A DNA stretch of 64,000 nt from Parcubacteria group bacterium (GCA_016180525.1 JACPBB010000002.1:345980-409979), one strand, 5' to 3'. Positions 26,658 through 46,530 are shown, counted from the first letter of the stretch. Translations and numbers: made by a program. The notes: generated from the sequence alone by a model not told the origin.

Positions 26658-26820
26658 TTTATACCTGATATTTTATTTTCAAATTCTAAGGATCAATTTG
26701 CGCGAATTGGTCTTTTACACCACATCGGACTTTGAACAACTTTCTAAAAATTTGATAAAGGTTTTTTCATACTATATAGTAATGTACAGACTTCTGCACC
26801 TTAAAAAGGAAGGAAAAGAT

Positions 26821-27834
26821 ATGAGCAAGTGGACATTTAAGACGGTCCGGCTCAATCCTCAAGGAGTTGCTGAATTTGTTGAGCTTACTAAATCTCAAGA
26901 AGCAAAAATTGACAGATATACTCAAGCATTAGAAGTCGCAGCCAAATCAACAGTTGCGAACCCCTCATACTCTCATTATTTTGTAAAAGAAAGTATCGGT
27001 GTTCTAGAAGGAGCGGCATTGCCTGCAGGAAATATTGAATATGGAATTTGCCAGGCGCTTCATGGAGAAGAGTCGGCAGTATCTGCATTTCGGTCTCATT
27101 ACGGAAGAGGTGAGCATAAAGAACTTGTTCTTGGAATTATTGCGGGCAGTCCGGGTAACATCGCAACGCCGTGTGGAAACTGCAGAGATATCATGCTTGA
27201 AGATTTAGGTACCGATTTTGAAATTGTCTCCGGCGCGGCCGACGGAGGTCTTGCGCTTGTAGTAAAGATGAGCGATTATCTTTTTTCCGATTTTAAAACG
27301 ATTGCTTTAGAGGATGTTCCTCCAAGCGTGTTGCAGAGAGTTGATTTGGCAATTGAAGAGGGTGCATTGCTCGTAAACGACGCGTATTCTCCTCCGAGCG
27401 TTCACCCTGAACGCAGGTACCACGCACTTATCGCAACGCACCGCAACAGTTTTGTTGGGGCTCGAGATGTGATGTGCGAATATCATCCGATTTATGCTCT
27501 TCGTGACGCGGTGCGGCAGGCAAGACGAAGAAATGATCCATGCATTAATTTTGTGGTTATTGTGTGCGAAGATTTTGGCGGCGGTGCTCCCCACGTGATG
27601 TATAAAGACCGGCAGCATTTAGTGGAGCTGAATTTACAAGGAGAGTTGCTTACTGGAGTAGAGACTAATCCTCCTGTATATCTTGTTACGCATAAAGGCT
27701 ATGAACAACTCACTGGCGCCTGGAAGACAAGTGTAAAAGAATGGATTCCAATGGTCTTTACTCCCAGAAATTTTGGACCGGAATTTGTTGATTTTCTTAC
27801 AAATTATTTTAAAACTCTTGGTGGGCGGCGATAA
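26821..27834 (+). CDS. cytidine-deaminase-like zinc deaminase, two-domain (dimeric E. coli Cdd-type architecture)
   Basis: N-domain has NIEYGICQALHGEES (Cdd NxE...CAE-like with His ligand) and PCGNCRDIM zinc motif; second CDA-like domain is degenerate; start at MSKW preceded by aaggaagg RBS (ORF-track start 26698). Confidence 0.5.
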   Translation: MSKWTFKTVRLNPQGVAEFVELTKSQEAKIDRYTQALEVAAKSTVANPSYSHYFVKESIGVLEGAALPAGNIEYGICQALHGEESAVSAFRSHYGRGEHKELVLGIIAGSPGNIATPCGNCRDIMLEDLGTDFEIVSGAADGGLALVVKMSDYLFSDFKTIALEDVPPSVLQRVDLAIEEGALLVNDAYSPPSVHPERRYHALIATHRNSFVGARDVMCEYHPIYALRDAVRQARRRNDPCINFVVIVCEDFGGGAPHVMYKDRQHLVELNLQGELLTGVETNPPVYLVTHKGYEQLTGAWKTSVKEWIPMVFTPRNFGPEFVDFLTNYFKTLGGRR

Positions 27835-27847
27835 GCCGCCTTTTGTT

Positions 27848-29092
27848 TTACTGCAATCGAAGTGTCCCGACCGCCTTTATCATATCTGATTGAGGGGGAA
27901 ACATGCACGAGCTTTGGGTGAGGGTTCCCCGTATGTATCCGACAACTGCAATCATTAAACCGTTATCGGTTGTAAGTTCTGGGGAAGGAATAAAAAGCGC
28001 GGTATCTGAAAAATTGGAAGAAACCGCTTTTGAGAGTTTTTCTCGTATATTTTTATTTGCTGATACTCCGCCGCCGATAACAATTGTTTTTGCCCCATAT
28101 CGCACGGCTGCGTCAATTGTTTTTTTAACAACAACCTCGGTAACTGCTTCTTGAAACTCATGAGAAAATTCCCTAACAAGTTCAGAATTTATTTTTCCTC
28201 CTCGTTTTTTTAATTCATACAACACTGCAGTTTTAATGCCGGAAAAAGAAAAATCAAAATCATCTGAATCAATCATTGGACGAGGGAGTCTTAGTGTTTT
28301 GTCTCCCTTAAATTCATTCGCTTTTTGTGAAACATGCGGGCCCCCAGGATAAGGGAGTTCCAACATGCGGGCAACCTTATCAAATGCCTCACCGATTGCG
28401 TCATCCCTCGTTTCCCCGACAATTTTGTATTGCAGCCAATCTTCTGAAAGCACTAATTCTGTATGCCCACCGGATATCAGTAACGCCAGAAGTGGAAATC
28501 GCACAGGGTATAGCGTATAGCGTTCAGCGTTTAGTTTTTTAAAATTTTGAATTTGTTTAGAAATTAGAAATTTTGAATTAGAAATTTCTTCTCTGCGCAA
28601 TAGCGCAGAGAAGATGTGGCCTTCCATGTGGTTTACGGGAATAATTGGAATATTCCAAACGAGTGAAAGCGCTTTAGTAAAATTAATGCCAACCCAGAGC
28701 GCCGGTTCAAGCCCCGGCCCATAGGTAACTGCGATTGCATCTATATCTGGTTTTTTAATATTTGGAATAAAATCAAGAAATGCTTCCAATAACTCCGGCT
28801 CTCTCGCGAAAAGCATATTGAGCAGTTTTTTTTGTTCAGTAGAAAGGATATTTTTTTGAATTTCAATGTTTCCTCCAAGCGCTTTTTTAAAAAGAGGAAT
28901 CAGATTTTTTGCGTGTTCTCGTTTGGCGAGCGAGGGATACACGCCACCGTATTCAGCGTGCAATTTTACTTGAGAAAGTATCAAGTTTGAAAGCACAGAA
29001 AAAGAGACATCGCCTGTTTTCGAGCTACCCTCGGCTTCCACAAGCGCAAGAGCCGTTTCATCGCACGATGTCTCAATAGAAAGAATTCTCAT
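27848..29092 (-). CDS. tsaD: tRNA N6-adenosine threonylcarbamoyltransferase TsaD (Kae1/YgjD family)
   Basis: 414 aa; N-terminal MRILSIETSCDETALAL, metal-binding HxEGH-type motifs; contains a low-complexity insertion. Confidence 0.8.
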   Translation of the reverse strand: MRILSIETSCDETALALVEAEGSSKTGDVSFSVLSNLILSQVKLHAEYGGVYPSLAKREHAKNLIPLFKKALGGNIEIQKNILSTEQKKLLNMLFAREPELLEAFLDFIPNIKKPDIDAIAVTYGPGLEPALWVGINFTKALSLVWNIPIIPVNHMEGHIFSALLRREEISNSKFLISKQIQNFKKLNAERYTLYPVRFPLLALLISGGHTELVLSEDWLQYKIVGETRDDAIGEAFDKVARMLELPYPGGPHVSQKANEFKGDKTLRLPRPMIDSDDFDFSFSGIKTAVLYELKKRGGKINSELVREFSHEFQEAVTEVVVKKTIDAAVRYGAKTIVIGGGVSANKNIREKLSKAVSSNFSDTALFIPSPELTTDNGLMIAVVGYIRGTLTQSSCMFPPQSDMIKAVGTLRLQ

Positions 29093-29171: not shown

Positions 29172-31922
29172 ATGCCTGAATCTAATCTTAGAGAAACATT
29201 TGGATTTAAATCTCCTGAGGAAGAGATTGATTTTTTGCGTGGCGAGATAGAGAAAAAAGAGCATGCGCTCAAAGAATCAAAAACCCACACGCACGAAAAA
29301 GCAACGCAAGCAGCCAAAGAAGAAGTAGCAGCATATCAAAAAAGGCCGCATCAGGAGGTGCTCGCGCCCGGATATGCCATGCCCGAAAAAGAAACAGAAA
29401 GTATCGTTCTTGATTTGGCTCCGGAAGAACATGATGAAAAAATAGGAGAATTACTCGGAGTATTAAACGAAAGAGGAATTAAAAATACGCTTTCTATTGT
29501 TGAAAAACTTAAAGATCCTCACCTTGAAGACGATTTTCATCGTTTCTTGGTGGAATATATTAAAGAAGGGTTTCCTGTTGCGGGGCTCAAAGAAAAGGGG
29601 CCATTATGGAAGGCGCTTCATATGACACTCTACGAGGTCGCGCTTCCCGGAAAAAGCGGAGAGGAAGAGGGTCGTCAAAAGCCGCTTAAAGAATTGCTCT
29701 CTGGTATGGAACAGTTTTATGCCGGCATGCTTTCTATCGGAGGAAAAGATGAGCGCGGAGTATCTCACTTTACGATTGAAGTCGCTCTTCCCGACAAGAC
29801 AGATGAGGTTGTGTTTTATTCTGCTGTTCCAAACCACAAACGAGATTTGTTTGAAAAACATATTCTCTCTATTTTTCCGAACGCGCGGATTCTTGAACAG
29901 AAAAATGATTACAATATTTTTGTTGAAGGCGGCACCTCCGTTGGCTCATATGCAACACTTATGCGCAAGCCAGTACTTCCGCTTAAAACATACGACGCGT
30001 TTGACCATGACCCGCTTAATATTCTTTTAAATACATTTTCAAAAATTGAAAAAAATGGCGGGGGAGCCGCAATTCAGATTGTATTCCATCCCTCCGGTGA
30101 ATCTCACCTCAGTGAATACAAAAATGTATTGCGCAAACTGCAAAAAGGGGAATCATTCAAAGATGCGATCAAAGGAGCTGATGTCCCCGGAGCATTTTTC
30201 AAAACAGTGGGGGAGATTTTTACCGGCCCTTCAAATAAAAAAGATAAAGAAAAAGCGCCACCCGACCAAATTGCGATAGAAAATGTACAAAATAAGACGG
30301 GAAGCCAGATTGTAACCTCAAACATCCGAATTCTCGCGTCTGCAAAAACAAAAAGTCGCGCGGAAGACATTCTCTCCGACATAGAGTCCTCGTTTAATCA
30401 ATTAGAAAATACGCACGGCAACAAGCTCTCTTTTGAGTCTGTCTCGGGAGGGAAATTGCTTTCTTTTTTCAAAGATTTCTCATTTCGCGATTATAGAGAA
30501 AAATATGGTCTTCCGCTTAATTTGAAAGAGATTGCGACCATTCTTCATTTTCCGCTTGGAGAGGCGGTGTCTTCTCCGCAATTGCGTGAGTCCAAAGCAG
30601 GCACTGCGCCGGCACCCACCGATGCTCCACAGGCGGGAATATTTTTGGGGATAAACAGATTTAGAAACGCAGAGAAGAAAATTTATCTTACTCCGGAAGA
30701 CAGGCTTCGTCACCTCTATGTTGTGGGGCAGACAGGAACGGGAAAAACAACACTACTCAAAAATATGATCGCGCAGGACATTGCCGCCGGAGAGGGCGTG
30801 TGCATGATAGATCCACACGGAAGCGACATTGAAGACGTGCTCGGCATGATTCCGGAAGAGCGGTTTAAAGACGTTATTTATTTTGACCCTGCCTACATTC
30901 CGCGCGTTATGGGGCTCAATATGCTTGAATATGACCCAGAACATCCGGAGCAGAAAACATTTGTGGTTAATGAGATGTTTAGTATTTTCCAAAAGCTCTA
31001 TGGCGCAGTGCCAGAGTCAATGGGCCCCATTTTTGAGCAATATTTTAGGAACGCGGCGATGCTTGTGGTTGATGACCCGGAGAGTGGAAGCACGCTTCTT
31101 GATATCTCACGGGTTTTAGCGGAAGAGCCATTCAGAAACATGAAACTGTCTCGGGCCAAAAATCCGGTCATAAAACAGTTCTGGACGGAAATTGCGACGA
31201 AAGCCGGAGGAGAACAATCGCTCGCAAATATTGTACCGTATATCACAAGCAAGTTTGATACATTTGTGGCGAATGAAATTATGCGGCCGATTATCGCTCA
31301 ACAAAAATCATCTTTTAATTTCAGGAAAATTATGGATGAGCGGAAAATCTTACTCGTAAATCTCTCAAAAGGAAAATTAGGGGAGGTGAATGCCAACCTT
31401 ATTGGCCTTATTCTTGTTGGTAAAATTTTAATGGCGGCGCTTTCCCGAGTTGACGCTCGTGGTGTGAATTTGCCGCCGTTTTATCTCTATATTGACGAGT
31501 TTCAAAATGTAACGACCGACTCAATATCAATCATTCTGTCAGAGGCGCGGAAATATAAACTATCGCTTACCGCGGCGCATCAATTTATCAAACAACTTGA
31601 TGATAAAACAAAAAACGCGGTATTCGGAAACGTTGGCTCTATGGCGGCGTTTCGTGTTGGCTCTGAAGACGCGGAGGTTTTGGAAAAACAGTTTGAACCC
31701 GCTTTTTCCGCTCGAGACCTTCTCAATATTGATAACTGGAATTGTTATATGAGACTTTTAATGAACGGCCGCCCCTCAAAGCCATTTAACGTGGAAATTC
31801 CCGCACCGAGGATAAGTGACAGGGCGCGTGCGGAGAAATTGAAAGAACTTTCCTATATGTCGTATGGCGAAGATAGAGGAAAAATAGAGCAAATGATTGC
31901 TGAAAAATATCAAAAAATATGA
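29172..31922 (+). CDS. type IV coupling-protein-like ATPase (VirD4/TraG/TraD family P-loop domain) with about 500-aa unknown N-terminal region and no TM helices
   Basis: Walker A GQTGTGKTT; Walker B-like YLYIDEFQNV; downstream ARKYKLSLTAAHQFIKQLD region matching the T4CP RxxG...Q..QL signature. Confidence 0.55.
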   Translation: MPESNLRETFGFKSPEEEIDFLRGEIEKKEHALKESKTHTHEKATQAAKEEVAAYQKRPHQEVLAPGYAMPEKETESIVLDLAPEEHDEKIGELLGVLNERGIKNTLSIVEKLKDPHLEDDFHRFLVEYIKEGFPVAGLKEKGPLWKALHMTLYEVALPGKSGEEEGRQKPLKELLSGMEQFYAGMLSIGGKDERGVSHFTIEVALPDKTDEVVFYSAVPNHKRDLFEKHILSIFPNARILEQKNDYNIFVEGGTSVGSYATLMRKPVLPLKTYDAFDHDPLNILLNTFSKIEKNGGGAAIQIVFHPSGESHLSEYKNVLRKLQKGESFKDAIKGADVPGAFFKTVGEIFTGPSNKKDKEKAPPDQIAIENVQNKTGSQIVTSNIRILASAKTKSRAEDILSDIESSFNQLENTHGNKLSFESVSGGKLLSFFKDFSFRDYREKYGLPLNLKEIATILHFPLGEAVSSPQLRESKAGTAPAPTDAPQAGIFLGINRFRNAEKKIYLTPEDRLRHLYVVGQTGTGKTTLLKNMIAQDIAAGEGVCMIDPHGSDIEDVLGMIPEERFKDVIYFDPAYIPRVMGLNMLEYDPEHPEQKTFVVNEMFSIFQKLYGAVPESMGPIFEQYFRNAAMLVVDDPESGSTLLDISRVLAEEPFRNMKLSRAKNPVIKQFWTEIATKAGGEQSLANIVPYITSKFDTFVANEIMRPIIAQQKSSFNFRKIMDERKILLVNLSKGKLGEVNANLIGLILVGKILMAALSRVDARGVNLPPFYLYIDEFQNVTTDSISIILSEARKYKLSLTAAHQFIKQLDDKTKNAVFGNVGSMAAFRVGSEDAEVLEKQFEPAFSARDLLNIDNWNCYMRLLMNGRPSKPFNVEIPAPRISDRARAEKLKELSYMSYGEDRGKIEQMIAEKYQKI

Positions 31923-32791
31923 ACCATAATCCACACGAAAAAAGAATTCACACACAGATAGAAAGTGTCTCTGAAGAAGGGCTTTTAAGTAAGGCACTTT
32001 TGGAAACAGGGCAACTATTGCGTGAACATCAAATCAACATTGAAGATTTTCGAGGTAAAGGTAAATATGATTCGGATACAATAGCAGAGCACCTGGCGTT
32101 TGTTGAGCAAAAGAAACGTAAATTTGAAATGTCTGCTACAGATGAAAGCCGTGACTCTCAAGAGCTTGCGACAATATTTGAGGGTATGTTTTATAAAGGC
32201 GCTCACGAATATGGATGGTTGGGGGACCCCACTCTAGTAAGAGTAATTAAGACATGCGATTTTGATGACTTGAAAAATGGAATTGACGGCATCGTGGAAT
32301 TTACCCAAGAAGGCAGAGGAGCGGAACATCTTGCTGTGGGAGTGGACGTAACATATAGTAATCAACTCAAAGAAAAATTTAAAAAAATTAAAAATGATAT
32401 TGCAGAAGGAAAACTTTCTTCCATAGAATATTTTCGTTCCGGTAATTTTATTGGAAGTCTCAATAATGTTCCTCGTGTTATTGTCGGAGCAGAGAGAAAA
32501 AATTTAATAGAATTATGCAGAGATGTGTTTGTTAAAAAAGATTCACAGAAACTCAAAAGACATCCGTTTCAGGTATTGCAATTAAAACAAATGCGGCTTC
32601 AGCTTGATGCGTTTGCCGATTATGCAGAGTCTCTTGGGAAAAAAGATGTCGCAGCTTTATATCGTCGTGATGCGGAAATTATTCGCAAGATTTTACAAAA
32701 GAAAAGTGTCGGAGAAGGAGTGCGCATGGGGCAGTGGGAAAATGATCGAGTCTTTGCGGCAATTAAACAAGAGCTGGAAAATTTAAAATAA
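31919..32791 (+). CDS. hypothetical protein, translationally coupled to the upstream ATPase (ATGA overlap)
   Basis: 290-aa soluble ORF; its start overlaps the stop of 29172..31922. Confidence 0.5.
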   Translation: MNHNPHEKRIHTQIESVSEEGLLSKALLETGQLLREHQINIEDFRGKGKYDSDTIAEHLAFVEQKKRKFEMSATDESRDSQELATIFEGMFYKGAHEYGWLGDPTLVRVIKTCDFDDLKNGIDGIVEFTQEGRGAEHLAVGVDVTYSNQLKEKFKKIKNDIAEGKLSSIEYFRSGNFIGSLNNVPRVIVGAERKNLIELCRDVFVKKDSQKLKRHPFQVLQLKQMRLQLDAFADYAESLGKKDVAALYRRDAEIIRKILQKKSVGEGVRMGQWENDRVFAAIKQELENLK

Positions 32792-32813
32792 TTATTAAAT
32801 TATAACAACCTCA

Positions 32814-32849
32814 TCCTTACAAACTGGAGTTTGTAAGGATGATATTTTT
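32814..32849. terminator. bidirectional terminator
   Basis: ccttacaaact-gga-gtttgtaagg hairpin plus T-run. Confidence 0.55.
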
Positions 32850-40168: not shown

Positions 40169-40888
40169 TCAACGTGGCAGTTTTTTATGCAAATAGTCCC
40201 GCAACTTTTTGGCTTGTTCATTCATATGCTGCTCTGCGTCTTCGGGCCACTTGCTTGTATCAAAGGGCACGGCTGCTTTTTCCGCCAATTTTTGCGCTTG
40301 TATAACATCAATGTGAGAAATAGTATCAAAGGGCACTCCGCCTTTTACACAAAAACTATGGCCATATTCATAATCAGTAATATGCAGACTCTCGGGATCT
40401 ATATAAATGTTTCTTTTCTCTGCCAGTCGTGATGAATCAACAAAAACTCTTCCATATAATTTTCCATGCGATTCATCGTCTATATATCCTTCAACCGCAA
40501 AATCAGTTGTTTGCAGGTATGTAAGTGTTTCGGGGTTTTTAGATCCAAACACCTCCTGATTTTCTATATTTTTTTCTATCACAGGTAATTCCGAAACATG
40601 GCCGAGCTCGAGTGGAGGCTCTGTGAGCGGAAGAAGCTCAATTTGTATTCGTTTAGCATCAACCCACCGCGCATTAATTATTTCCCTTTCAAATGCGTCT
40701 ATAATATTTTTTACAGACCGTTCGCTCCACCCGAATTCCTCAACGGTTCCTTCAATTATGATATTGGGCAATTCTTTATTCGGTATTGTTTCTTGCGGCG
40801 AAGAGGGTACTTCAATTGTCTTAAGCACTTTGTGCGCCCGTGCTTTTTCAAGGCGTCTTTCAAAATAGGGGTCTATGTCTTCACGCAT
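40169..40888 (-). CDS. hypothetical protein (third gene of a 3-gene operon)
   Basis: ORF-track 40942 start overlaps the upstream gene by 62 nt; the internal Met at 40888 abuts the upstream stop instead. Confidence 0.4.
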   Translation of the reverse strand: MREDIDPYFERRLEKARAHKVLKTIEVPSSPQETIPNKELPNIIIEGTVEEFGWSERSVKNIIDAFEREIINARWVDAKRIQIELLPLTEPPLELGHVSELPVIEKNIENQEVFGSKNPETLTYLQTTDFAVEGYIDDESHGKLYGRVFVDSSRLAEKRNIYIDPESLHITDYEYGHSFCVKGGVPFDTISHIDVIQAQKLAEKAAVPFDTSKWPEDAEQHMNEQAKKLRDYLHKKLPR

Positions 40889-41534
40889 AAGATTTATTTG
40901 TAAGCATATCTTTTTGGGACCATGTTTGATACCACGCATCACCCTTTCCGGCAGGTGGTATATGAATAACGAGTGTTCCCTCGTCTTTCACGGCAGGATT
41001 CGGATGCTCATCATAGGGTGCTATTATTATTTCTACATCAGAGCCGAGCTCCTTTTCTACCACAAGGGTTAAACCATTTATCGCGTCTTTATCGAGGACC
41101 TGAATCTCTTCTTGTTTTGTGTCTGGATTTTGCGTGCGTACACCGGGAAGAGCAAAAATTGCTTTTTTAATTTTTGCGCTTTTTATTCTCTCTTCATCTG
41201 GAATGAGAGCGCGTAGTTTTCCCATGCTTGTGAGCAAGGCATCCGGCGGATAGTAGGTAAGAGCGCATGCTCTTGTGCCGTCCTCGGTTTCCACAAATAC
41301 AGCCACGGTATTACAGTCGCAGAGCCCATATGTCCACATAACTTTTTCTTCCGTTGCGCCTGGTGGGACTTCCACAAATCTTCCATCTTTAATGCCCACC
41401 CACTCAACATTACTGTCGCGGCTCTCCACAGAGCGACGATATAAATCTTGCACGGTCGCAGAAAAATCTTCCGCGGGGGATTCATTGGCATTTTTTTGTT
41501 TTTCGAAGTTGTTGGTCACATTATTTTTCCCCAA
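40881..41534 (-). CDS. hypothetical protein (second gene of a 3-gene operon)
   Basis: 217-aa ORF overlapping the neighbouring genes at both ends. Confidence 0.45.
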   Translation of the reverse strand: MGKNNVTNNFEKQKNANESPAEDFSATVQDLYRRSVESRDSNVEWVGIKDGRFVEVPPGATEEKVMWTYGLCDCNTVAVFVETEDGTRACALTYYPPDALLTSMGKLRALIPDEERIKSAKIKKAIFALPGVRTQNPDTKQEEIQVLDKDAINGLTLVVEKELGSDVEIIIAPYDEHPNPAVKDEGTLVIHIPPAGKGDAWYQTWSQKDMLTNKSYA

Positions 41535-41791
41535 GGATGATCTTTTCCCTCAAATAATTCCTCTATTAAAAGCTTCTTTACTTTTTCTCGCTTGGGGTCT
41601 CCGAATTTATCACTTTCATTTCTGCAACAGGCACGGGCATATGCAATGTCTCCACGGCGCAGCGCCTTTGTGATACTTTGGGTAACCGTTTCCCACGGGC
41701 CACCATGTTGTGGAGGGTCCAGTTTTTCTATTGTATCAGCAAGCGCGTCCCACCTTCCTTGCTCGGATTCTTGTTTTAATACTTCGTTCAT
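41516..41791 (-). CDS. hypothetical protein (first gene of a 3-gene operon)
   Basis: 91-aa ORF; 19-nt overlap with the next gene. Confidence 0.4.
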   Translation of the reverse strand: MNEVLKQESEQGRWDALADTIEKLDPPQHGGPWETVTQSITKALRRGDIAYARACCRNESDKFGDPKREKVKKLLIEELFEGKDHPWGKIM

Positions 41792-41824
41792 GTTTTGATT
41801 TTAACACATTTGTATGAAAAACGG

Positions 41825-41909
41825 TGGCGGTGGGTAGAGGGCTCGAACCTCTAAGGGCTTGCGCCCGCCGCTTTTCGAAAGCGGTGCATTACCATTCTGC
41901 CAACCCACC
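41825..41909 (-). tRNA. tRNA-Ser (anticodon CGA), CCA encoded
   Basis: manual fold: acceptor ggtgggt/acccacc, 3-bp D-stem, anticodon loop ttCGAaa, long variable arm cgggcgcaagccc, 3' GCCA. Confidence 0.8.
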
Positions 41910-42593
41910 CTAGAAGGTCCTTAGTGGTTTTCTGTTTAATATTTCCTCGACTTCTTCATATCCAAGAGGGAAACTGAAATTGTAACGTGCCGGCACAGCA
42001 AAAACGTAATTTGTATTTCGTCCCAATTCGTTCGGGTCAACCGGAGCGGCTCCAATGTGAAATTTTCCAGATTTAAGATTACCCCATTGTTCCGCGGTAA
42101 ATACCATGACAGGAATATCTTGATAAAGTTTTTCAGCAGTCCATTTCGGATTGTGTATCGATACTATCGGACCATGCGTAAATTCTTTCTCGCCCAGTTC
42201 ATCGCCGACATCGTAACCTGTCCATGTATCCATGGAAACGGTGTAGTTCCGCCATGTTTCCGGTAGAGAAACATAAAATCTGTATTCGGCGTTACGATAT
42301 TCCGGCAAACTTGTATCGCTATCGAATGGTGACAGGTGTTTTTTGGTAACGGTAATGTAGGTAGTTATTGCGACCGCAATTACAGCCGCGATGGCAATGG
42401 ACAACAGCAATTTTTTTCTTGGAATCCTGGCGCAGGCTTTGTTTAGAACTTGAAAATCAGCTAATAGTGATGTAACTCCCAAAACTAAGAAAATGCCGGA
42501 CGCTAGCCAGTCTCCGTTACGTATCGCTTCTATTGATGCGAATCCGAAAAAAATTATAAATATTGCTAAATTGATAAAAGTCGGCGTTTTCAT
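41910..42593 (-). CDS. hypothetical membrane protein
   Basis: start trimmed to MKTPTF because the ORF-track N-terminus runs through tRNA-Ser(42639..42725); 2 TM helices then a soluble domain. Confidence 0.45.
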   Translation of the reverse strand: MKTPTFINLAIFIIFFGFASIEAIRNGDWLASGIFLVLGVTSLLADFQVLNKACARIPRKKLLLSIAIAAVIAVAITTYITVTKKHLSPFDSDTSLPEYRNAEYRFYVSLPETWRNYTVSMDTWTGYDVGDELGEKEFTHGPIVSIHNPKWTAEKLYQDIPVMVFTAEQWGNLKSGKFHIGAAPVDPNELGRNTNYVFAVPARYNFSFPLGYEEVEEILNRKPLRTF

Positions 42594-42638
42594 GCTTTTG
42601 CTTTCAAGCCCGGTCTTTCGAACGGGTGTACAATCCTG

Positions 42639-42725
42639 CGGAGGGGGAGAGATTCGAACTCTCGTGAGACTTTCGTCTCCGACGGATTTCGAGTCCGCGC
42701 CGTTAAACCACTCCGGCACCCCTCC
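42639..42725 (-). tRNA. tRNA-Ser (anticodon CGA), second copy
   Basis: manual fold: acceptor ggagggg/cccctcc, 3-bp D-stem, anticodon loop ctCGAaa, long variable arm ggagacgaaagtctc, T-arm gagag-ttcgaat-ctctc. Confidence 0.7.
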
Positions 42726-42845
42726 AAAAGAAAGACTAACATTTTTTGTATTTTTCACAAAATATGCTATAGTTTTTAGGCCTAAAACACTTTTGCTTTG
42801 CAAAATGTTTGGCCAATCAATTCTGCTTTTGCAGAATGTGATTTA

Positions 42846-42920
42846 GGCCCCATCGTCTAGCCTGGTCCAGGACGTGAGCTTTTCAAGCTCAAAACCCGGG
42901 TTCGAATCCCGGTGGGGTCA
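42846..42920 (+). tRNA. tRNA-Glu (anticodon TTC)
   Basis: aligns with canonical tRNA-Glu (GTCTAG...CCAGGAC D-arm); anticodon loop ttTTCaa; T-arm ccggg-ttcgaat-cccgg. Confidence 0.8.
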
Positions 42921-42960
42921 TAAAATGAAACTCATAATTATAAGTAATTAAATAAAGATT

Positions 42961-43257
42961 ATGGAGAAATTTAAAGGTGAAAAAAATCCGTTTATGGATA
43001 CATATGAAACTGCCAGCGGTCTAATGGAAGCGCTTGAGAAGAACAAAGGAAGGAAATTTAATTGGGAGAGACATCCTCTTTCTGAAGAAGAGGACTTGTA
43101 CACGGGTGTAGACAAACAAGAAGATGGAACTCTTAAAATATATGTGATATTGAGCAAGGATTCTGAAAACTCATTTCTTAACACATTTGATACCTTTCCA
43201 CAGGTGCTCGAATTTTTTAAAGAACTATCTCAGTCTGAGAAAAAACAAGAGAGATAA
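42961..43257 (+). CDS. hypothetical acidic protein
   Basis: 98-aa ORF. Confidence 0.4.
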   Translation: MEKFKGEKNPFMDTYETASGLMEALEKNKGRKFNWERHPLSEEEDLYTGVDKQEDGTLKIYVILSKDSENSFLNTFDTFPQVLEFFKELSQSEKKQER

Positions 43258-43309
43258 AAATTGCCAGAAAAAGATACCTGACCCCAACAAGTTTTGATAT
43301 AATTAATCT

Positions 43310-43651
43310 ATGAGATTAAGCTATGTTGCACTTTTGATTCTTGCTGTTGCCGCTGTGGCAATAGCGGATGTATTTCTCAAACAAGCCGCTGTGCATAACA
43401 GTTTGTGGGCAGCATTTAAAAGCCCATGGATGATTGGAGCGATATTTTTGTATCTCTTTCAAATATTTTTCTTTACTTATATTTTTGTCGCTGGAGTCCA
43501 GCTTGTTAATGTCGGCGTCCTTCAAACTGTTCTCTATGCAGCCATAGTTCTTTTTGCCGGATTTTTTATTTTTAATGAGACACTTACTCCGATACAAGTT
43601 CTCGGAATTATTTTGGCACTCAGCGGGACGATATTAATCAGCCTTAAATAA
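43310..43651 (+). CDS. small 4-TM membrane protein (SMR/EamA-like, DMT superfamily)
   Basis: 113 aa, four TM helices typical of EmrE/ArnE-like half-transporters. Confidence 0.5.
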   Translation: MRLSYVALLILAVAAVAIADVFLKQAAVHNSLWAAFKSPWMIGAIFLYLFQIFFFTYIFVAGVQLVNVGVLQTVLYAAIVLFAGFFIFNETLTPIQVLGIILALSGTILISLK

Positions 43652-43661
43652 AAATTAAAAC

Positions 43662-44903
43662 ATGAACAAAGGATTTATCCCCCCACCTTCTCAGAATACC
43701 TCACAGTCTTGCTGTGGAGATGGATGGGTGTTGTACAGATCCTTTCTGAAGGGTCCAATATCTCGCGGGAAGGTGGGGGGATTTATTTCTATTTTTACGC
43801 TTCTTATTATTCTTGGCGTGGTTGGCGTTGGGGTGGTGGGCGCTGTACTTATTGTTAAAACGGGAAATGATAAAAATGACATGGCATCTATTGAAGAGGA
43901 GACAGAAATAGTGGCATCTGAAAATAAAGAGGCAACTTCGTTACCTGTTTCATCAAAGCTTGTCAAAAGCACAGAACAAGGAATTCAAGCGCCAAACACA
44001 ACTCCTTCTGTGGACACCACTCTTCTTAATTTAGAGCGCGAAATTAGTGTTTTGTTTGACGCCAAAGTAGCGATCGGGGAGGAACACTATCTTCTTATTT
44101 TAAAAAATCTTGATAACGCGGAAAAAGAGGGTGGTAATAAAGATACAGTAGCGCGACTGCGAAATATGCTTGAAACAATACATTCGTATGCATCGCTATC
44201 CGCTCCCGAGGAATCGCAAATCACAACAACAGCAGAAGAAGCTCCGATGCCCAAGGGGGTCGGAGTCCCGACCTCGCCAGAAGCGAGCGTCGGGGAAAAA
44301 ACAGAGCCGGTGTCTTGCGCAAACGACACGCGCCCGAAGCTAACCGCAGACATTACCGACTTTTCTAAAATCAGAAAAATTACGGCCCCTGGCAACGCGT
44401 CAGTTGAAGGTCCGAAAGGACACTCGTTTATCTGGACGGGTGGCGCGCGTGTTCCCATCTATGCTCCTGCGAATATTACACTTGAATCTGGCTCATATTC
44501 AAAAGATACCGAGAGTAGTCCGGCGCAGTATCTCCTCTTTTTTGTAGTACAAGAGAATTGCAACTATCGCGTTAAGTTTGACCACATAGATGAGCCGATT
44601 ACATCCATCAGAGAACAATTCTCGGCGACTCCAGCTGTCGCGGACAGTCATACTTCGGAAGTAGTAAACAAAATAAAATTTAACACCGGTGATTTAATTG
44701 GCTACACGTCTGGTACGGTCTCGGCAGGTAATTGGGACTTCGGCATGTATAATTTGAACGAAGAAGGGCCCCTGAAACGAGTTGACAATGTCTTCGGCAT
44801 ACATGGCTACTCGGTGTGCTGGGTGGATTTTTATTCCCCGGATGTAAAAAAATATCAATACAGAAATCTACTTGAAGGCACCACCCTCGTTTGTTTCTTT
44901 TAA
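43662..44903 (+). CDS. hypothetical membrane-anchored secreted protein carrying an in-frame REP-like element
   Basis: 413 aa; N-terminal TM; nt 44244..44294 is a copy of the G+C-rich palindromic repeat and encodes PKGVGVPTSPEASVGEK. Confidence 0.5.
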   Translation: MNKGFIPPPSQNTSQSCCGDGWVLYRSFLKGPISRGKVGGFISIFTLLIILGVVGVGVVGAVLIVKTGNDKNDMASIEEETEIVASENKEATSLPVSSKLVKSTEQGIQAPNTTPSVDTTLLNLEREISVLFDAKVAIGEEHYLLILKNLDNAEKEGGNKDTVARLRNMLETIHSYASLSAPEESQITTTAEEAPMPKGVGVPTSPEASVGEKTEPVSCANDTRPKLTADITDFSKIRKITAPGNASVEGPKGHSFIWTGGARVPIYAPANITLESGSYSKDTESSPAQYLLFFVVQENCNYRVKFDHIDEPITSIREQFSATPAVADSHTSEVVNKIKFNTGDLIGYTSGTVSAGNWDFGMYNLNEEGPLKRVDNVFGIHGYSVCWVDFYSPDVKKYQYRNLLEGTTLVCFF

Positions 44904-44931
44904 TGAATTTCAAATAGTGTATAATCATACT

Positions 44932-45051
44932 ATGGGAAAACGAAGCACAGCAATAGGGCTCATGAGAACATCTCGTTCTCGAAAGACAAAAAAACGTCTT
45001 GCGAAAAAACACGCAATGCTCGCGAAAAGAGCCGCGAAACGGGGCAGGTAG
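44932..45051 (+). CDS. small Lys/Arg-rich protein (39 aa), possibly a divergent bL34-like ribosomal protein
   Basis: MGKRSTAIGLMRTSRSRKTKKRLAKKHAMLAKRAAKRGR; C-terminal RLAKKHAMLAKRAAKRGR loosely resembles L34 RMATKNGRKVLARRRAKGR; TATAAT 5 nt upstream; terminator immediately downstream. Confidence 0.3.
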   Translation: MGKRSTAIGLMRTSRSRKTKKRLAKKHAMLAKRAAKRGR

Positions 45052-45086
45052 TGCAATCTTACCAGGCTCTTTTGTCATAAAAACAA

Positions 45087-45135
45087 CCCCCTCACTCTCT
45101 AAGAGTGAGGGGGTGTTTTGCCTGATTTTTTTTCT
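45087..45135. terminator. bidirectional palindromic terminator (copy A)
   Basis: ccccctcactct-cta-agagtgaggggg with A-run before and T-run after; near-identical palindrome at 48724..48750. Confidence 0.65.
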
Positions 45136-45144
45136 TTTCTATTC

Positions 45145-46530
45145 TCATACCCCCGTTCCAAATGGAAGCGAGAGTACATAGAGTCCGAAGACGGTGTAGG
45201 AAACCATGAGGAAGAGCATCGGAAGCTGTCCAAGAATGATTTGCAAACGACTTTCAAATTCCACAAGCGCGATGCGATGTGCGATATATGTCGCGAGAAT
45301 ATGTCCAAGAAGAATTGCCCCAACCATAATGTACCAGACGGTGTCAGCCCCAATAATTCCTATATTAACTTGATACGATTGCGTGCCGAATAAATCCCAA
45401 TCTCTGAAGAGTGGATCGGAGAGCATGGGAATTAAGCGTTGTCCTTCAAAAATGAGGAGGCCAAAGTAGTGCGCGAAGTGATAGACAATGGCAATTGGTA
45501 TTAGGGAATACGTGAATGTGAGGAGGAGTGAAGAAAATGAGGTGGCAGTTTTCGTGACGAGTTTCATAAGAAATATTGCAAACGCATAGAATGCGAAGAA
45601 GACAAGCGGAGAGAAAAGAAGCGTTACATGCGAGACAAGAGAATAGTTGTTGAGGAAGAGGTCGCTTGAGCGGATGAAGTTTACCCATGGCTCTGTTTCT
45701 TTACTTCCGTCAAAAACGGTGGAAGAGAGCATAAAGAGAACGAAGAACAGAATGCTTATATGTGCGGTGCGACTTTTTAAGAGATGCTCGCCGGGTGGAG
45801 TAAATTCAATTTTTTGGGGCGTAATATGAAGCGGAGCGAATTTTCCCACAAGACGGAAGAACACGCTGAAAAAGTCAGAATAGTGAAACCAGTCACGAAT
45901 TCCAAAAAGTGCCGAGCCGTAAATGGAGATAAGAGTGTAGATTACAAGTACTCCGCCAAGCACATAGGGGTTCGCACCAGCGCCGCCTGAGAGCAGCTCA
46001 AGCCAGATAAGGCTGAAAAAAAAGAAAAGCGCGGGGATATATCCGAGCCGCCCCGGATAGGTGTATCGTGGCACATGATTTTTAGGAAGTATCCACGAGG
46101 CAATTGTTTTGAATGGGTTCATATACTCCCAGAGATTTCCAAATAGAGCAGAGAGATAGGTAAACCCCAAGAGGAAGATAATCCAGAAGAGAATCGGAGC
46201 GGGGTTGAGAAAGGCATTCCCGCTTCCTAAGAAAGCGAGTGCAAGCGTAAGTGTGAGGAGTATGATACCGAGAGCTTTCAGAAATGCCGCTACGAAGCGA
46301 AGAGATGGAATGGAAAATGTCTTACTGATATATCGCGAAGTTCCAGAAAGAGCTGGGGTGCTGAATAGTCCGAGAATTGCAAATGATGCCACAAGCGCTG
46401 CTCCCGCTCCGATTGCGTAAATGTGGAAGGGAAGCGGGAGTGTAAATTGGAGTCCAAACGCGTGTGCTTCTGTTATTGTTGGCACAAGTAAAATGAGGAT
46501 TCCGGCAAGAATCTTAAGAATTTGTTTCAT
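45145..46530 (-). CDS. polytopic membrane protein with signal peptide; possible metal-uptake partner of the adjacent YcnI-like protein
   Basis: 461 aa, more than 10 TM helices; operon with cupredoxin-like and YcnI/DUF1775-like genes. Confidence 0.5.
   Translation of the reverse strand: MKQILKILAGILILLVPTITEAHAFGLQFTLPLPFHIYAIGAGAALVASFAILGLFSTPALSGTSRYISKTFSIPSLRFVAAFLKALGIILLTLTLALAFLGSGNAFLNPAPILFWIIFLLGFTYLSALFGNLWEYMNPFKTIASWILPKNHVPRYTYPGRLGYIPALFFFFSLIWLELLSGGAGANPYVLGGVLVIYTLISIYGSALFGIRDWFHYSDFFSVFFRLVGKFAPLHITPQKIEFTPPGEHLLKSRTAHISILFFVLFMLSSTVFDGSKETEPWVNFIRSSDLFLNNYSLVSHVTLLFSPLVFFAFYAFAIFLMKLVTKTATSFSSLLLTFTYSLIPIAIVYHFAHYFGLLIFEGQRLIPMLSDPLFRDWDLFGTQSYQVNIGIIGADTVWYIMVGAILLGHILATYIAHRIALVEFESRLQIILGQLPMLFLMVSYTVFGLYVLSLPFGTGV

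What the first reader, a model, noticed from the sequence alone, without database searches (positions are those of the whole stretch)
29172..32791. Soluble VirD4/TraG-like coupling ATPase with a 500-aa unknown N-terminal region, translationally coupled to a 290-aa unknown protein
The C-terminal half of the 916-aa protein has T4CP-like hallmarks.
- It has Walker A GQTGTGKTT.
- It has the Walker B-like YLYIDEFQNV.
- It has the ARKYKLSLTAAHQFIKQLD block that resembles the conserved arginine/glutamine region of type IV coupling proteins (VirD4/TraG/TraD).
- It lacks the usual N-terminal transmembrane anchor; instead there is a large hydrophilic N-terminal region with no recognisable motif.
- The downstream gene overlaps by ATGA.
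- No other type IV secretion, pilus or relaxase genes are nearby, so its role is open; it could translocate DNA or protein, or act as the ATPase of an uncharacterised (possibly defence-related) two-gene module.
Basis: partly seen in the sequence, partly recalled or inferred. Interest (0 to 1): 0.55.

Follow-up and report, generated by a model that had tools for sequence, protein, structure and literature searches.

The report
Anchorless coupling-type ATPase of ultrasmall bacteria
This is one copy of a widely conserved gene of Parcubacteria (ultrasmall, host-dependent bacteria): a motor ATPase related to the "coupling proteins" of DNA-transfer machines that has no membrane anchor. The small gene after it is a lineage-specific add-on, not a conserved partner.

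Summary
There is a 916-aa ORF (29172-31922) with the quoted Walker A, Walker B and Arg/Gln blocks and no transmembrane helix. It overlaps a 290-aa ORF (31919-32791) by ATGA, and a strong terminator follows.

The coupling-protein (T4CP) reading is supported. The hits are weak but above threshold for T4SS-DNA_transf and TrwB_AAD_bind, TrwB is the best solved-structure match by sequence, and no VirB4-specific profile hits.

The "unknown" N-terminus is Pfam DUF8128 (aa ~140-480). Modelled alone, its only significant solved-structure matches are R388 VirB4/TrwK. It also matches the VirB4-like gp155 of phage G. It follows a ~135-aa helical extension that sits where some Patescibacteria relatives carry a single transmembrane helix.

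The gene is a core Parcubacteria gene: more than 2,800 homologues and at least 595 species. It usually lies after the ribosomal spc operon (SecY-Adk-Map) and before NDK, or after the cell-division cluster. Distant relatives on Bacillus and Embleya plasmids and in phage G sit beside VirB4 and relaxase-like genes.

The two-gene module is refuted. The partner family has 42 members and is absent from all 80 related loci.

A 2025 paper already reports T4CP homologues throughout Patescibacteria, mostly far from virB4 and of unresolved role. This is therefore a new member of a known kind.

The parts
29172..31922 (+). Complete gene for the 916-aa DUF8128 + T4CP-type ATPase
   Evidence: ORF. It is 100% identical to P0001, which a source names 'DUF87 domain-containing protein [Parcubacteria group bacterium]'. 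The precomputed Pfam annotation for this exact protein is PF26449 DUF8128 + PF01935.
29172..29588 (+). N-terminal helical extension (aa 1-139), specific to the anchorless (~880-1120 aa) subtype. It sits where five ~800-aa relatives have one transmembrane helix.
   Evidence: The model shows six helices between aa 15 and 132. No Pfam hit. Relatives P0245, P0260, P0261, P0268 and P0278 start with a hydrophobic helix and align only from about query aa 140. The extension is conserved among orthologues, for example the consensus NPHIEDDFHRFLVQYIK.
29589..30611 (+). DUF8128 core (aa 140-480): two alpha/beta subdomains joined by a disordered basic loop (aa ~337-360). The fold resembles the N-terminal domain of VirB4.
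   Evidence: Model of the domain alone: pLDDT 79.7, pTM 0.80. In Foldseek against the PDB, the only hits with E<1e-3 are ten R388 TrwK/VirB4 chains (best 9e-6, TMq 0.48); the next hit is at E~1e-2. In the viral library it hits phage G gp156 (1e-15) and the VirB4-like gp155 (2e-7). Sequence profiles gave no signal against VirB4.
30612..31922 (+). T4CP-type P-loop ATPase domain (aa ~481-916), with a helical insertion (aa ~594-700) between Walker A and Walker B
   Evidence: Pfam and NCBIfam hits. PADLOC mad8 scores 51.6 bits over aa 489-835. Foldseek on the full model hits Cag-beta, HerA and TrwB. hhalign of the C-domain profile against TrwB gives 95.8% probability, against 15.5% for TrwK. Helices are listed.
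30726..30752 (+). Walker A / P-loop GQTGTGKTT (aa 519-527)
   Evidence: Position. G519-K525 are invariant in 43 orthologues. It aligns to the TrwB P-loop.
31482..31511 (+). Walker B YLYIDEFQNV (aa 771-780)
   Evidence: Position. D775, E776, F777, Q778 and N779 are invariant. It aligns to TrwB LWLFIDELASL.
31545..31601 (+). ARKYKLSLTAAHQFIKQLD block (aa 792-810): putative arginine finger and sensor glutamine
   Evidence: R793, K794, Y795, H803 and Q804 are invariant. The block aligns to TrwB TKGRKAGLRVVAGLQSTSQLDD. The assignment of the arginine-finger and sensor roles is inferred from knowledge of TrwB.
31919..32791 (+). 290-aa soluble protein of a rare Patescibacteria-only family. It is co-transcribed here but is not a conserved partner.
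   Evidence: ORF. No hit in Pfam, NCBIfam, PADLOC, PHROG or the PDB. The family has 42 members with no recurrent Pfam annotation (one carries a precomputed PF22219). Invariant residues are E88, W100, G102, D116, D117, D123, D143, T145 and K153. Context is not conserved.
32811..32842 (.). Bidirectional intrinsic-terminator hairpin that ends the two-gene unit
   Evidence: 14-bp stem with a 4-nt loop. A T-run (TATTTTTG) follows on the + strand.

Best explanation
The 916-aa protein is the Parcubacteria (class Paceibacteria) orthologue of a chromosomal, single-gene, coupling-protein-type (VirD4/TrwB clade) P-loop ATPase.

It has three parts:
- a clade-specific helical extension of about 135 aa, in place of a membrane anchor;
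- a DUF8128 domain whose fold resembles the N-terminal domain of VirB4, which in VirB4 is the module that docks the ATPase onto VirB3/VirB8 at the membrane;
- a T4CP motor domain with intact Walker A, Walker B, arginine-finger and glutamine motifs, plus a helical insertion.

Inferred mechanism: it assembles into a ring, probably a hexamer, that uses ATP to thread a polymer (nucleic acid or an unfolded protein) through its pore. It is recruited to the membrane through protein contacts rather than through its own transmembrane helices. The DUF8128 domain and the N-extension would bind components of the chromosomal, monoderm-type type IV secretion system that about 80% of Patescibacteria encode elsewhere in the genome.

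The downstream 290-aa gene is a lineage-restricted passenger in a variable slot. It is not part of the machine.

What is shown: homology, architecture, conservation, synteny and non-conservation of the pair.

What is inferred: ring formation, docking to the T4SS, and the substrate.
For: Family placement:
- Pfam T4SS-DNA_transf and TrwB_AAD_bind score above their gathering cutoffs, and TraG-D_C falls just below.
- In 38-42%-identical relatives the same profiles score 31-45 bits over the whole domain.
- The best NCBIfam hits are TraD-type.
- TrwB is the top solved-structure hit by sequence, alone and with a profile.
- hhalign of the C-domain gives 95.8% probability against TrwB and 15.5% against TrwK.
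- The catalytic motifs are invariant in 43 orthologues.

N-terminal domain:
- Modelled alone, DUF8128 hits only VirB4/TrwK in the PDB.
- It also hits the VirB4-like phage G gp155.

T4CP role of relatives:
- BLASTP against the Embleya plasmid protein gives E 4e-55 over aa 226-899. Against the B. subtilis plasmid protein it gives E 3e-28 over aa 215-890.
- These relatives lie next to canonical VirB4 (AAA_10 / P-loop_TraG), PrgI, TcpE and 'replication-relaxation' genes.
- Phage G gp156 lies next to the VirB4-like gp155.

Core-gene status:
- More than 2,847 homologues, at 57-73% identity over the full length.
- At least 595 species-level genomes, all Patescibacteria.
- Conserved position after L15-SecY-Adk-Map and before NDK in about 33 of 74 loci, or after mraZ-rsmH-ftsL-ftsI-murF in about 8 loci.

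Literature:
- 5,713 VirD4-type homologues in 2,918 of 3,035 Patescibacteria genomes, only 148 of them near virB4. VirB4 is present in 2,417 of 3,035 genomes (PMC12102498).
- There is a precedent for an anchorless T4CP tethered by another protein: pIP501 TraJ with TraI (PMC12857230).
Against: - There is no T4SS gene in the 64-kb window or in the ±10-kb flanks of 80 orthologous loci. Linkage to the T4SS is therefore not shown.
- T4CP homologues occur in more Patescibacteria genomes (96%) than VirB4 does (80%). The T4CP homologue of Southlakia epibionticum was not essential for epibiotic growth, whereas other T4SS genes were (PMC12102498). Both points are compatible with a T4SS-independent role.
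- I did not show that the Saccharibacteria gene is an orthologue of this one.
- The Pfam scores for the window protein itself are marginal.
- The similarity to the VirB4 N-domain rests on Foldseek matches of a predicted model (TM about 0.45). No sequence-profile signal supports it.
- The ATPase region aa 788-850 has low pLDDT in the full model.
Confidence: 0.5

Rival explanations
1. Exapted housekeeping motor. The gene descends from a conjugative coupling protein but now works independently of any secretion system, as a cytoplasmic nucleic-acid translocase. Possible roles are chromosome segregation or clearance at division (FtsK-like), or handling of imported nucleic acid for nucleotide salvage.
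For: - Its position is conserved at the end of the ribosomal spc operon, next to NDK and an RNase J-like beta-CASP gene, or directly after mraZ-rsmH-ftsL-ftsI-murF.
- A transmembrane-anchored paralogue follows an FtsQ-like gene.
- Identity is very high (55-60%) across a fast-evolving class.
- T4CP homologues are present in more genomes than VirB4, and the published authors say exaptation cannot be ruled out (PMC12102498).
- It has no membrane anchor.
Against: - Synteny within one class may reflect shared ancestry rather than function. Adk-Map is the ordinary end of the spc operon in most bacteria.
- The VirB4-like N-domain and the T4CP helical insertion are retained and strongly conserved, which suggests that the ancestral protein contacts persist.
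- There is no FtsK gamma domain. The FtsK_SpoIIIE profile matches only the P-loop and scores below its cutoff.
- At least some Patescibacteria have their own FtsK (papers listed).
Confidence: 0.3
2. A two-gene functional module, possibly anti-phage defence, in which the 290-aa protein is the effector or partner of the ATPase.
For: - The two genes overlap by ATGA and share one terminator.
- The pair recurs in the closest relative, at 73% identity.
- The best PADLOC hit is mad8 of the MADS system, at 51.6 bits.
- The 290-aa family has an invariant acidic and lysine pattern that could be catalytic.
Against: - The partner family has 42 members, against thousands for the ATPase.
- The partner profile hits 0 of 80 ATPase loci.
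- A 71%-identical orthologue has another gene downstream.
- In L006 the partner lies four genes away.
- In L008, L101 and L102 the partner occurs without the ATPase.
- No other MADS gene or methyltransferase is nearby. The context is housekeeping, not a defence island.
Confidence: 0.04
3. A HerA/FtsK-type or VirB4-type ATPase mislabelled as a coupling protein. That is, the ATPase belongs to an unrelated branch of the superfamily.
For: - The top Pfam hit by E-value is DUF87 (HerA central domain), and sources name the protein 'DUF87 domain-containing' or 'HerA-like'.
- The best Foldseek hits of the full model are VirB4 chains, and HerA scores about the same as TrwB.
Against: - The DUF87, FtsK and HerA_C matches cover only about 50 residues around the P-loop.
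- No VirB4 profile (AAA_10, P-loop_TraG, CagE_TrbE_VirB, TraC_F_IV) hits the protein. These profiles do hit the adjacent VirB4 genes of the plasmid and phage relatives.
- T4CP profiles cover the whole domain.
- There is no HAS-barrel and no NurA partner.
- The VirB4 ranking is explained by the N-domain.
Confidence: 0.08
4. A remnant or active part of an integrated conjugative or mobile element.
For: - Distant homologues are on plasmids and in a jumbo phage, next to relaxase-like genes.
- One orthologue has an integrase and a restriction-modification methylase a few genes downstream.
Against: - GC content is flat across the region.
- The neighbours are ValRS, TsaD and MetK.
- The chromosomal position is the same in dozens of species.
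- There is no relaxase, integrase or repeats here.
- Relaxases are found in only 103 of 3,035 Patescibacteria genomes (PMC12102498).
Confidence: 0.03

Closest known systems
VirD4/TrwB-family type IV coupling proteins (TrwB of R388, TraD, PcfC)
   Same: It has a P-loop motor with Walker A, Walker B and an Arg/Gln block that align to TrwB. A helical insertion lies between Walker A and B. T4SS-DNA_transf, TrwB_AAD_bind and TraG-D_C profile matches cover the domain.
   Different: It has no N-terminal transmembrane domain. About 480 extra N-terminal residues form a helical extension plus DUF8128. The gene stands alone among housekeeping genes, with no relaxase or mating-pair genes nearby. Profile scores are marginal and sequence identity to TrwB is low (about 15% in structural alignments).
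DUF8128-type coupling proteins of monoderm plasmids and jumbo phages (B. subtilis plasmid NZ_OX419568 WP_213380696, Embleya plasmid WP_331738717, Bacillus phage G gp156; PHROG 5156)
   Same: They share the DUF8128 + ATPase architecture and are homologous over about 680 residues (E 3e-28 to 4e-55). phrog_5156 scores 236 bits over aa 209-911.
   Different: Those genes sit beside VirB4, PrgI, TcpE and 'replication-relaxation' genes, which is a real transfer apparatus. They lack the 135-aa helical extension. The Embleya protein has one transmembrane helix. Identity is only 22-27%.
Orphan T4CP homologues of Patescibacteria described by Quinonero-Coronel et al. 2025 (PMC12102498)
   Same: Both are VirD4-type homologues present in nearly all Patescibacteria genomes, almost never next to virB4, and of unresolved function. 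The window gene fits this description.
   Different: As far as I read it, that paper does not describe the DUF8128 / VirB4-like N-domain, the anchorless versus transmembrane subtypes, or the spc/dcw synteny. I did not verify that this exact protein is in their table.
VirB4 (TrwK of R388)
   Same: The overall two-domain plan is shared: an N-terminal alpha/beta docking domain plus a C-terminal P-loop ATPase. The N-domain fold matches.
   Different: The ATPase domain matches T4CP sequence profiles, not VirB4 profiles. In plasmid relatives a separate canonical VirB4 is present.
pIP501 TraJ, a T4CP without a transmembrane domain
   Same: It is a coupling protein that lacks its own membrane anchor and is proposed to be tethered by another protein, TraI (PMC12857230).
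   Different: TraJ is encoded inside its conjugation operon beside its anchor. I found no candidate anchor gene conserved next to the Parcubacteria gene.

Membership tests
VirD4/TrwB-type type IV coupling protein (T4CP) | P-loop NTPase with Walker A, Walker B and a conserved Arg/Gln block that align to TrwB | tested here: met
   phmmer alignment to TrwB 1e9r/1gl6. The motifs are invariant in 43 orthologues.
VirD4/TrwB-type type IV coupling protein (T4CP) | Matches the curated T4CP profiles (T4SS-DNA_transf, TrwB_AAD_bind, TraG-D_C) at or above gathering score | tested here: met
   Scores against cutoffs: 22.1 vs 20.1, 20.9 vs 20.5 and 21.4 vs 22.0. Two of three pass, all marginally. Relatives at 38-42% identity score 31-45 bits. 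The NCBIfam equivalog cutoffs (366-800 bits) are far from met, so it is not an equivalog of any named TraD or VirD4.
VirD4/TrwB-type type IV coupling protein (T4CP) | All-alpha domain inserted in the nucleotide-binding domain | tested here: inconclusive
   The model has a helical block at aa ~594-700 between Walker A and B. In relatives the TrwB_AAD_bind profile aligns across it. No structural superposition of this subdomain was possible.
VirD4/TrwB-type type IV coupling protein (T4CP) | N-terminal transmembrane anchor | tested here: not met
   There is no hydrophobic segment in the first 500 aa, and 0 of 120 orthologues has one. Five ~800-aa relatives do have one helix. Known exceptions exist, such as pIP501 TraJ.
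VirD4/TrwB-type type IV coupling protein (T4CP) | Encoded with a relaxase and/or mating-pair-formation (VirB4) genes | tested here: not met
   None in the 64-kb window or in the flanks of 80 orthologous loci. The feature is met for distant plasmid and phage relatives.
VirD4/TrwB-type type IV coupling protein (T4CP) | Hexameric ring, DNA-stimulated ATPase, substrate recruitment to a T4SS | not testable with these tools
   This needs biochemistry, electron microscopy or multimer prediction.
Pfam DUF8128 (PF26449) | Match to the family profile | tested here: met
   A precomputed Pfam hit is listed for this exact protein and for all 120 listed homologues. The model is not in the local Pfam copy, so I could not re-score it.
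VirB4 family | N-terminal domain with the VirB4 fold | tested here: met
   The N-domain model hits only TrwK/VirB4 in the PDB (E 9e-6 to 8e-4, TMq 0.41-0.48). It also hits VirB4-like gp155 (E 2e-7). This is fold-level evidence only; hhalign gave no signal.
VirB4 family | C-terminal ATPase matching VirB4 profiles (AAA_10, P-loop_TraG, CagE_TrbE_VirB, TIGR00929) | tested here: not met
   There are no such Pfam hits. TIGR00929 matches only 24 residues at the P-loop, at 17.5 bits against a cutoff of 643.
HerA / FtsK-SpoIIIE translocases | Full-domain profile match; HAS-barrel (HerA) or gamma domain (FtsK); NurA partner | tested here: not met
   DUF87, HerA_C and FtsK_SpoIIIE match only aa ~500-550. 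FtsK scores 16.7 against 24, and HerA_C 15.6 against 22. No NurA-like neighbour was found.
MADS defence system (mad8) | Co-location with the other mad genes, including a methyltransferase | tested here: not met
   The mad8 profile hits at 51.6 bits. The partner has no PADLOC hit, and the neighbours are ValRS, TsaD, VIT1, PspC and MetK.

The most novel reading that the evidence does not exclude
The anchorless DUF8128-T4CP is the missing cytoplasmic motor of the Patescibacteria type IV apparatus and works in the import direction. It would dock through its VirB4-like domain and reel host nucleic acid (RNA or DNA) into the parasite to feed nucleotide salvage. This would fit its conserved position between adenylate kinase and nucleoside-diphosphate kinase, with an RNase J-like gene further downstream. 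It would also answer the question, left open in a 2026 preprint (10.64898/2026.06.21.733656), of how these bacteria take up host RNA.
Probability: 0.1. Interest if true: 0.85.

Novelty: new member of a known kind. Interest (0 to 1): 0.4.

Why it matters
Patescibacteria make up a large share of bacterial diversity. They depend on hosts and need a type IV secretion system for epibiotic growth. The coupling-type ATPase that should feed that system is almost never encoded with it, and its role is unresolved in the literature.

This locus is a clean example of the dominant Parcubacteria form. The analysis adds three usable facts:
- The unknown N-terminal half is a VirB4-like docking-type fold.
- The family comes in an anchorless version and a single-helix-anchored version.
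- The gene is embedded in ribosomal or cell-division operons, while its plasmid and phage cousins sit in bona fide transfer clusters.

These facts give concrete hypotheses to test, namely which T4SS subunit the protein docks to and which substrate it moves. They also bear on how coupling proteins diverged from VirB4. The locus does not reveal a new kind of system, and the proposed two-gene module is not real.

Tried and rejected
Libraries that were unavailable:

Searches that gave nothing:
- hhalign of the DUF8128 profile against single VirB4 sequences (TrwK, Embleya, phage G gp155, B. subtilis plasmid) gave no signal, with probabilities of 0.2% or less. The N-domain relationship is therefore not confirmed at sequence level.
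- A literature search for 'DUF8128' found nothing.
- The 290-aa protein has no hit in Pfam, NCBIfam, PADLOC or PHROG. Its profile has no PDB hit. An iterated profile search only enlarged an unannotated family to 42 members.
- I considered a PD-(D/E)xK-like reading of its invariant E/D/D/D/K pattern but have no support for it.
- tblastn found no second T4CP paralogue in the window.

Ideas not taken further:
- I could not recover the NCBI assembly accession of the window's contig. So I could not check whether this genome has virB4.
- An FtsK-replacement idea could not be tested, because whole genomes cannot be fetched. Saccharibacteria do have FtsK according to the papers listed.
- The JGI name 'MiaE' for two orthologues looks like a mis-annotation and was disregarded.

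Full report
**1. What is in the sequence**

The window carries a 916-aa ORF at 29172-31922 (+). A 290-aa ORF at 31919-32791 (+) overlaps it by ATGA. Upstream, on the other strand, lie TsaD (27848-29092) and ValRS. Downstream, a perfect 14-bp hairpin with a T-run at 32811-32842 separates the pair from a convergent VIT1-family gene. The two genes therefore form one bicistronic unit.

The only strongly hydrophobic 19-mer is inside the ATPase core at aa 739, so the protein has no transmembrane anchor. GC content is flat across the region.

The rest of the 64 kb is housekeeping: class II ribonucleotide reductase, MurJ, LepA, a P-type ATPase, EF-P, MgtE, MetK, CoaD-like, FtsZ, FtsA, HisRS, signal peptidase, Pth, S1 and GyrA. 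No secretion, pilus or relaxase domain was detected. About ten ORFs have no Pfam hit.

**2. Which ATPase family**

Pfam gives weak hits that reach threshold for T4SS-DNA_transf (22.1 against 20.1, aa 512-813 on profile positions 44-348) and TrwB_AAD_bind (20.9 against 20.5). TraG-D_C falls just under its cutoff. DUF87, FtsK and HerA_C match only about 50 residues around the P-loop, and no VirB4 profile hits.

The best NCBIfam hits are TraD-type coupling proteins, far below equivalog cutoffs. The best solved-structure match by sequence is TrwB, and its Walker B and Arg/Gln blocks align to the quoted motifs. A C-domain profile aligns to TrwB with 95.8% probability, against 15.5% for the VirB4 TrwK. 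Relatives at 38-42% identity score 31-45 bits on the same T4CP profiles over the whole domain.

Walker A, Walker B (D775, E776), R793 and Q804 are invariant in 43 orthologues. The ATPase is therefore a divergent member of the VirD4/TrwB clade and is very probably catalytically active. PADLOC's mad8 scores 51.6 bits, but nothing else in the neighbourhood resembles a defence system.

**3. The N-terminal 'unknown' half**

All homologues carry the precomputed Pfam annotation PF26449 = DUF8128. This family is absent from the local Pfam copy and from the literature library.

A search with aa 1-493 alone found 958 cluster representatives and revealed two architectures:
- Proteins of about 880-1120 aa align from residue ~10 and have no hydrophobic N-terminus.
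- Five proteins of about 790-840 aa (P0245, P0260, P0261, P0268, P0278) begin with one clear transmembrane helix and align only from about query aa 140.

The window protein therefore consists of three parts: a ~135-aa helical extension that sits where those relatives have an anchor, then the DUF8128 core (aa ~140-480), then the ATPase.

The full-length model (pLDDT 74) matched R388 VirB4/TrwK best, over 800-925 columns. It also matched Cag-beta, HerA and TrwB. I then modelled the DUF8128 core alone (pLDDT 79.7, pTM 0.80).

Its only significant PDB matches are ten TrwK/VirB4 chains (E 9e-6 to 8e-4, TMq 0.41-0.48), and the next hit is at E~1e-2. No other RecA-type ATPase appears among those hits, so the match must be to the N-terminal domain of VirB4. 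In the viral library the same model hits phage G gp156 (E 1e-15), which is a DUF8128 homologue. It also hits the adjacent VirB4-like gp155 (E 2e-7) and a 'component of type IV transporter system' (E 2e-5).

Sequence profiles do not detect this relationship, so it is fold-level evidence only.

**4. Distribution and context**

More than 2,847 homologues were found. The top 120 are full-length, 57-73% identical, and all from Parcubacteria/Patescibacteria. A scan of one genome per species found at least 595 species, and every one of the 80 loci returned is Patescibacteria.

I called ORFs in those 80 loci, clustered them and mapped their positions:
- In about 33 of 74 loci the gene follows ...L15-SecY-Adk-Map, with zero to two variable small genes between. 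It precedes NDK, and often DUF2238, an RNase J-like beta-CASP protein, and L20/IF3. Three independent look-ups showed the same order.
- In about 8 loci it follows mraZ-rsmH-ftsL-ftsI(-murF).
- In others it precedes FKBP-Tgt-UvrB.

No T4SS gene recurs in the flanks. The gene is therefore a stand-alone core gene embedded in housekeeping operons. A transmembrane-anchored paralogue sits after an FtsQ-like gene and before several unannotated genes.

**5. Relatives outside Patescibacteria**

PHROG 5156 matches aa 209-911 at 236 bits. tblastn finds Bacillus phage G gp156 and 246 plasmid records from Streptomyces/Embleya, Bacillus, haloarchaea and Sulfolobus.

In a B. subtilis plasmid the 913-aa homologue (E 3e-28 over aa 215-890) is followed by a 'replication-relaxation' protein, a conjugal-transfer protein, TcpE and a VirB4 (AAA_10). 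In an Embleya plasmid the 812-aa homologue (E 4e-55 over aa 226-899, one transmembrane helix) lies between a VirB4 and a 'replication-relaxation' protein, with PrgI and NlpC/P60 nearby. In phage G, gp156 follows the VirB4-like gp155.

In those contexts the family occupies the coupling-protein position of monoderm-type transfer systems, alongside a separate VirB4.

**6. The 290-aa protein**

It has no hit in any profile library or in the PDB. The first search found 14 homologues, and a profile search found 42, all unannotated. The alignment shows invariant E88, W100, G102, D116, D117, D123, D143, T145 and K153, which suggests an enzyme. I have no fold for it.

Its contexts are as follows:
- It is adjacent to the ATPase in the window and in the 73%-identical relative.
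- It is replaced by a phosphoribosyltransferase-like gene in a 71%-identical orthologue that keeps the ValRS-TsaD upstream synteny.
- It lies four genes downstream of the ATPase in L006.
- It is unlinked to the ATPase in L008, L101 and L102.
- Its profile hits none of the 80 species-level ATPase loci.

The pair is therefore not a conserved module. The position just downstream of the ATPase is a variable slot.

**7. Literature**

Quinonero-Coronel et al. 2025 (PMC12102498) report VirB4 in 2,417 of 3,035 Patescibacteria genomes. They report 5,713 VirD4-type T4CP homologues in 2,918 genomes, only 148 of them near virB4. They also note that the T4CP homologue of S. epibionticum was not essential for epibiotic growth, so exaptation 'cannot be ruled out'.

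The 2025 FEMS review (PMC12857230) notes that the Patescibacteria T4SS is essential. It also notes that pIP501 TraJ is a T4CP proposed to be anchored by another protein, TraI. A 2026 preprint shows a Patescibacterium feeding on host RNA and states that the uptake route is unresolved.

**8. Interpretation**

What is shown:
- The protein is a T4CP-clade ATPase with intact catalytic motifs.
- Its N-terminal half is a DUF8128 domain with a VirB4-NTD-like fold.
- It has no membrane anchor.
- It is a core, stand-alone gene across Parcubacteria.
- Its cousins on plasmids and in phages sit in real transfer clusters.
- The downstream gene is not a conserved partner.

What is inferred:
- It forms a ring translocase.
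- It reaches the membrane through protein contacts of DUF8128 and the N-extension with the chromosomal T4SS, by analogy with the VirB4 N-domain binding VirB3/VirB8, and with TraJ/TraI.
- It feeds or receives a polymeric substrate.

The main rival is a T4SS-independent, exapted role. It remains serious because of the housekeeping synteny, because T4CP homologues are more widely distributed than VirB4, and because the Saccharibacteria homologue is non-essential.

**9. Verdict**

The T4CP interpretation is supported, and the two-gene or defence module is refuted. The family is already catalogued and has recently been discussed, so this is a new member of a known kind with unresolved function. The structural assignment of DUF8128 and the anchorless versus anchored split are modest additions. 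Interest is moderate.

Noticed in passing
window 26698-27834 (+): A 378-aa ORF has an H-x-E ... PCxxC zinc-binding pattern and a very weak dCMP_cyt_deam_1 match (E 0.095). It may be a divergent cytidine-deaminase-like nucleotide-salvage enzyme.
   Followed up: no
window 40169-46530: A run of ORFs (257, 217, 297, 413 and 461 aa) has no Pfam hit at all. These are uncharacterised Patescibacteria proteins. In principle they could hide very divergent envelope or secretion components.
   Followed up: no
L100 7842-12766 and L006 1812-6004: The slot immediately downstream of the ATPase varies between close orthologues. One has a phosphoribosyltransferase-like gene, a phage-type integrase and a type III restriction-modification methylase. 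Another has four inserted genes, including a DUF5663 protein and a 742-aa unknown.
   Followed up: partly
L102 1-2529 and 12376-12882: A Falkowbacteria MAG carries an array of six or seven T4SS_pilin paralogues about 4 kb from a homologue of the 290-aa protein. This recalls the VirB2-like pilin arrays reported for Patescibacteria T4SS loci.
   Followed up: no
L092 3249-7391 (Bacillus phage G): The jumbo phage G encodes a VirB4-like ATPase (gp155) directly followed by a DUF8128-type coupling-protein homologue (gp156). The deposited annotation calls gp156 'MsbA-like'. Bacillus phages JL and Slash have structural matches too.
   Followed up: partly
L094 4933-14582: A transmembrane-anchored ~800-aa DUF8128 paralogue (P0260) lies after an FtsQ-like POTRA_1 gene and two unknown genes. 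Five unannotated genes follow it. This may be a conserved cluster of its own.
   Followed up: no
P0011 and P0033: JGI names two full-length orthologues 'tRNA isopentenyl-2-thiomethyl-A-37 hydroxylase MiaE'. This is almost certainly an annotation error.
   Followed up: no
window 32811-32842: A perfect 14-bp inverted repeat sits between two convergent genes and has T-runs on both strands. It is a textbook bidirectional terminator.
   Followed up: yes
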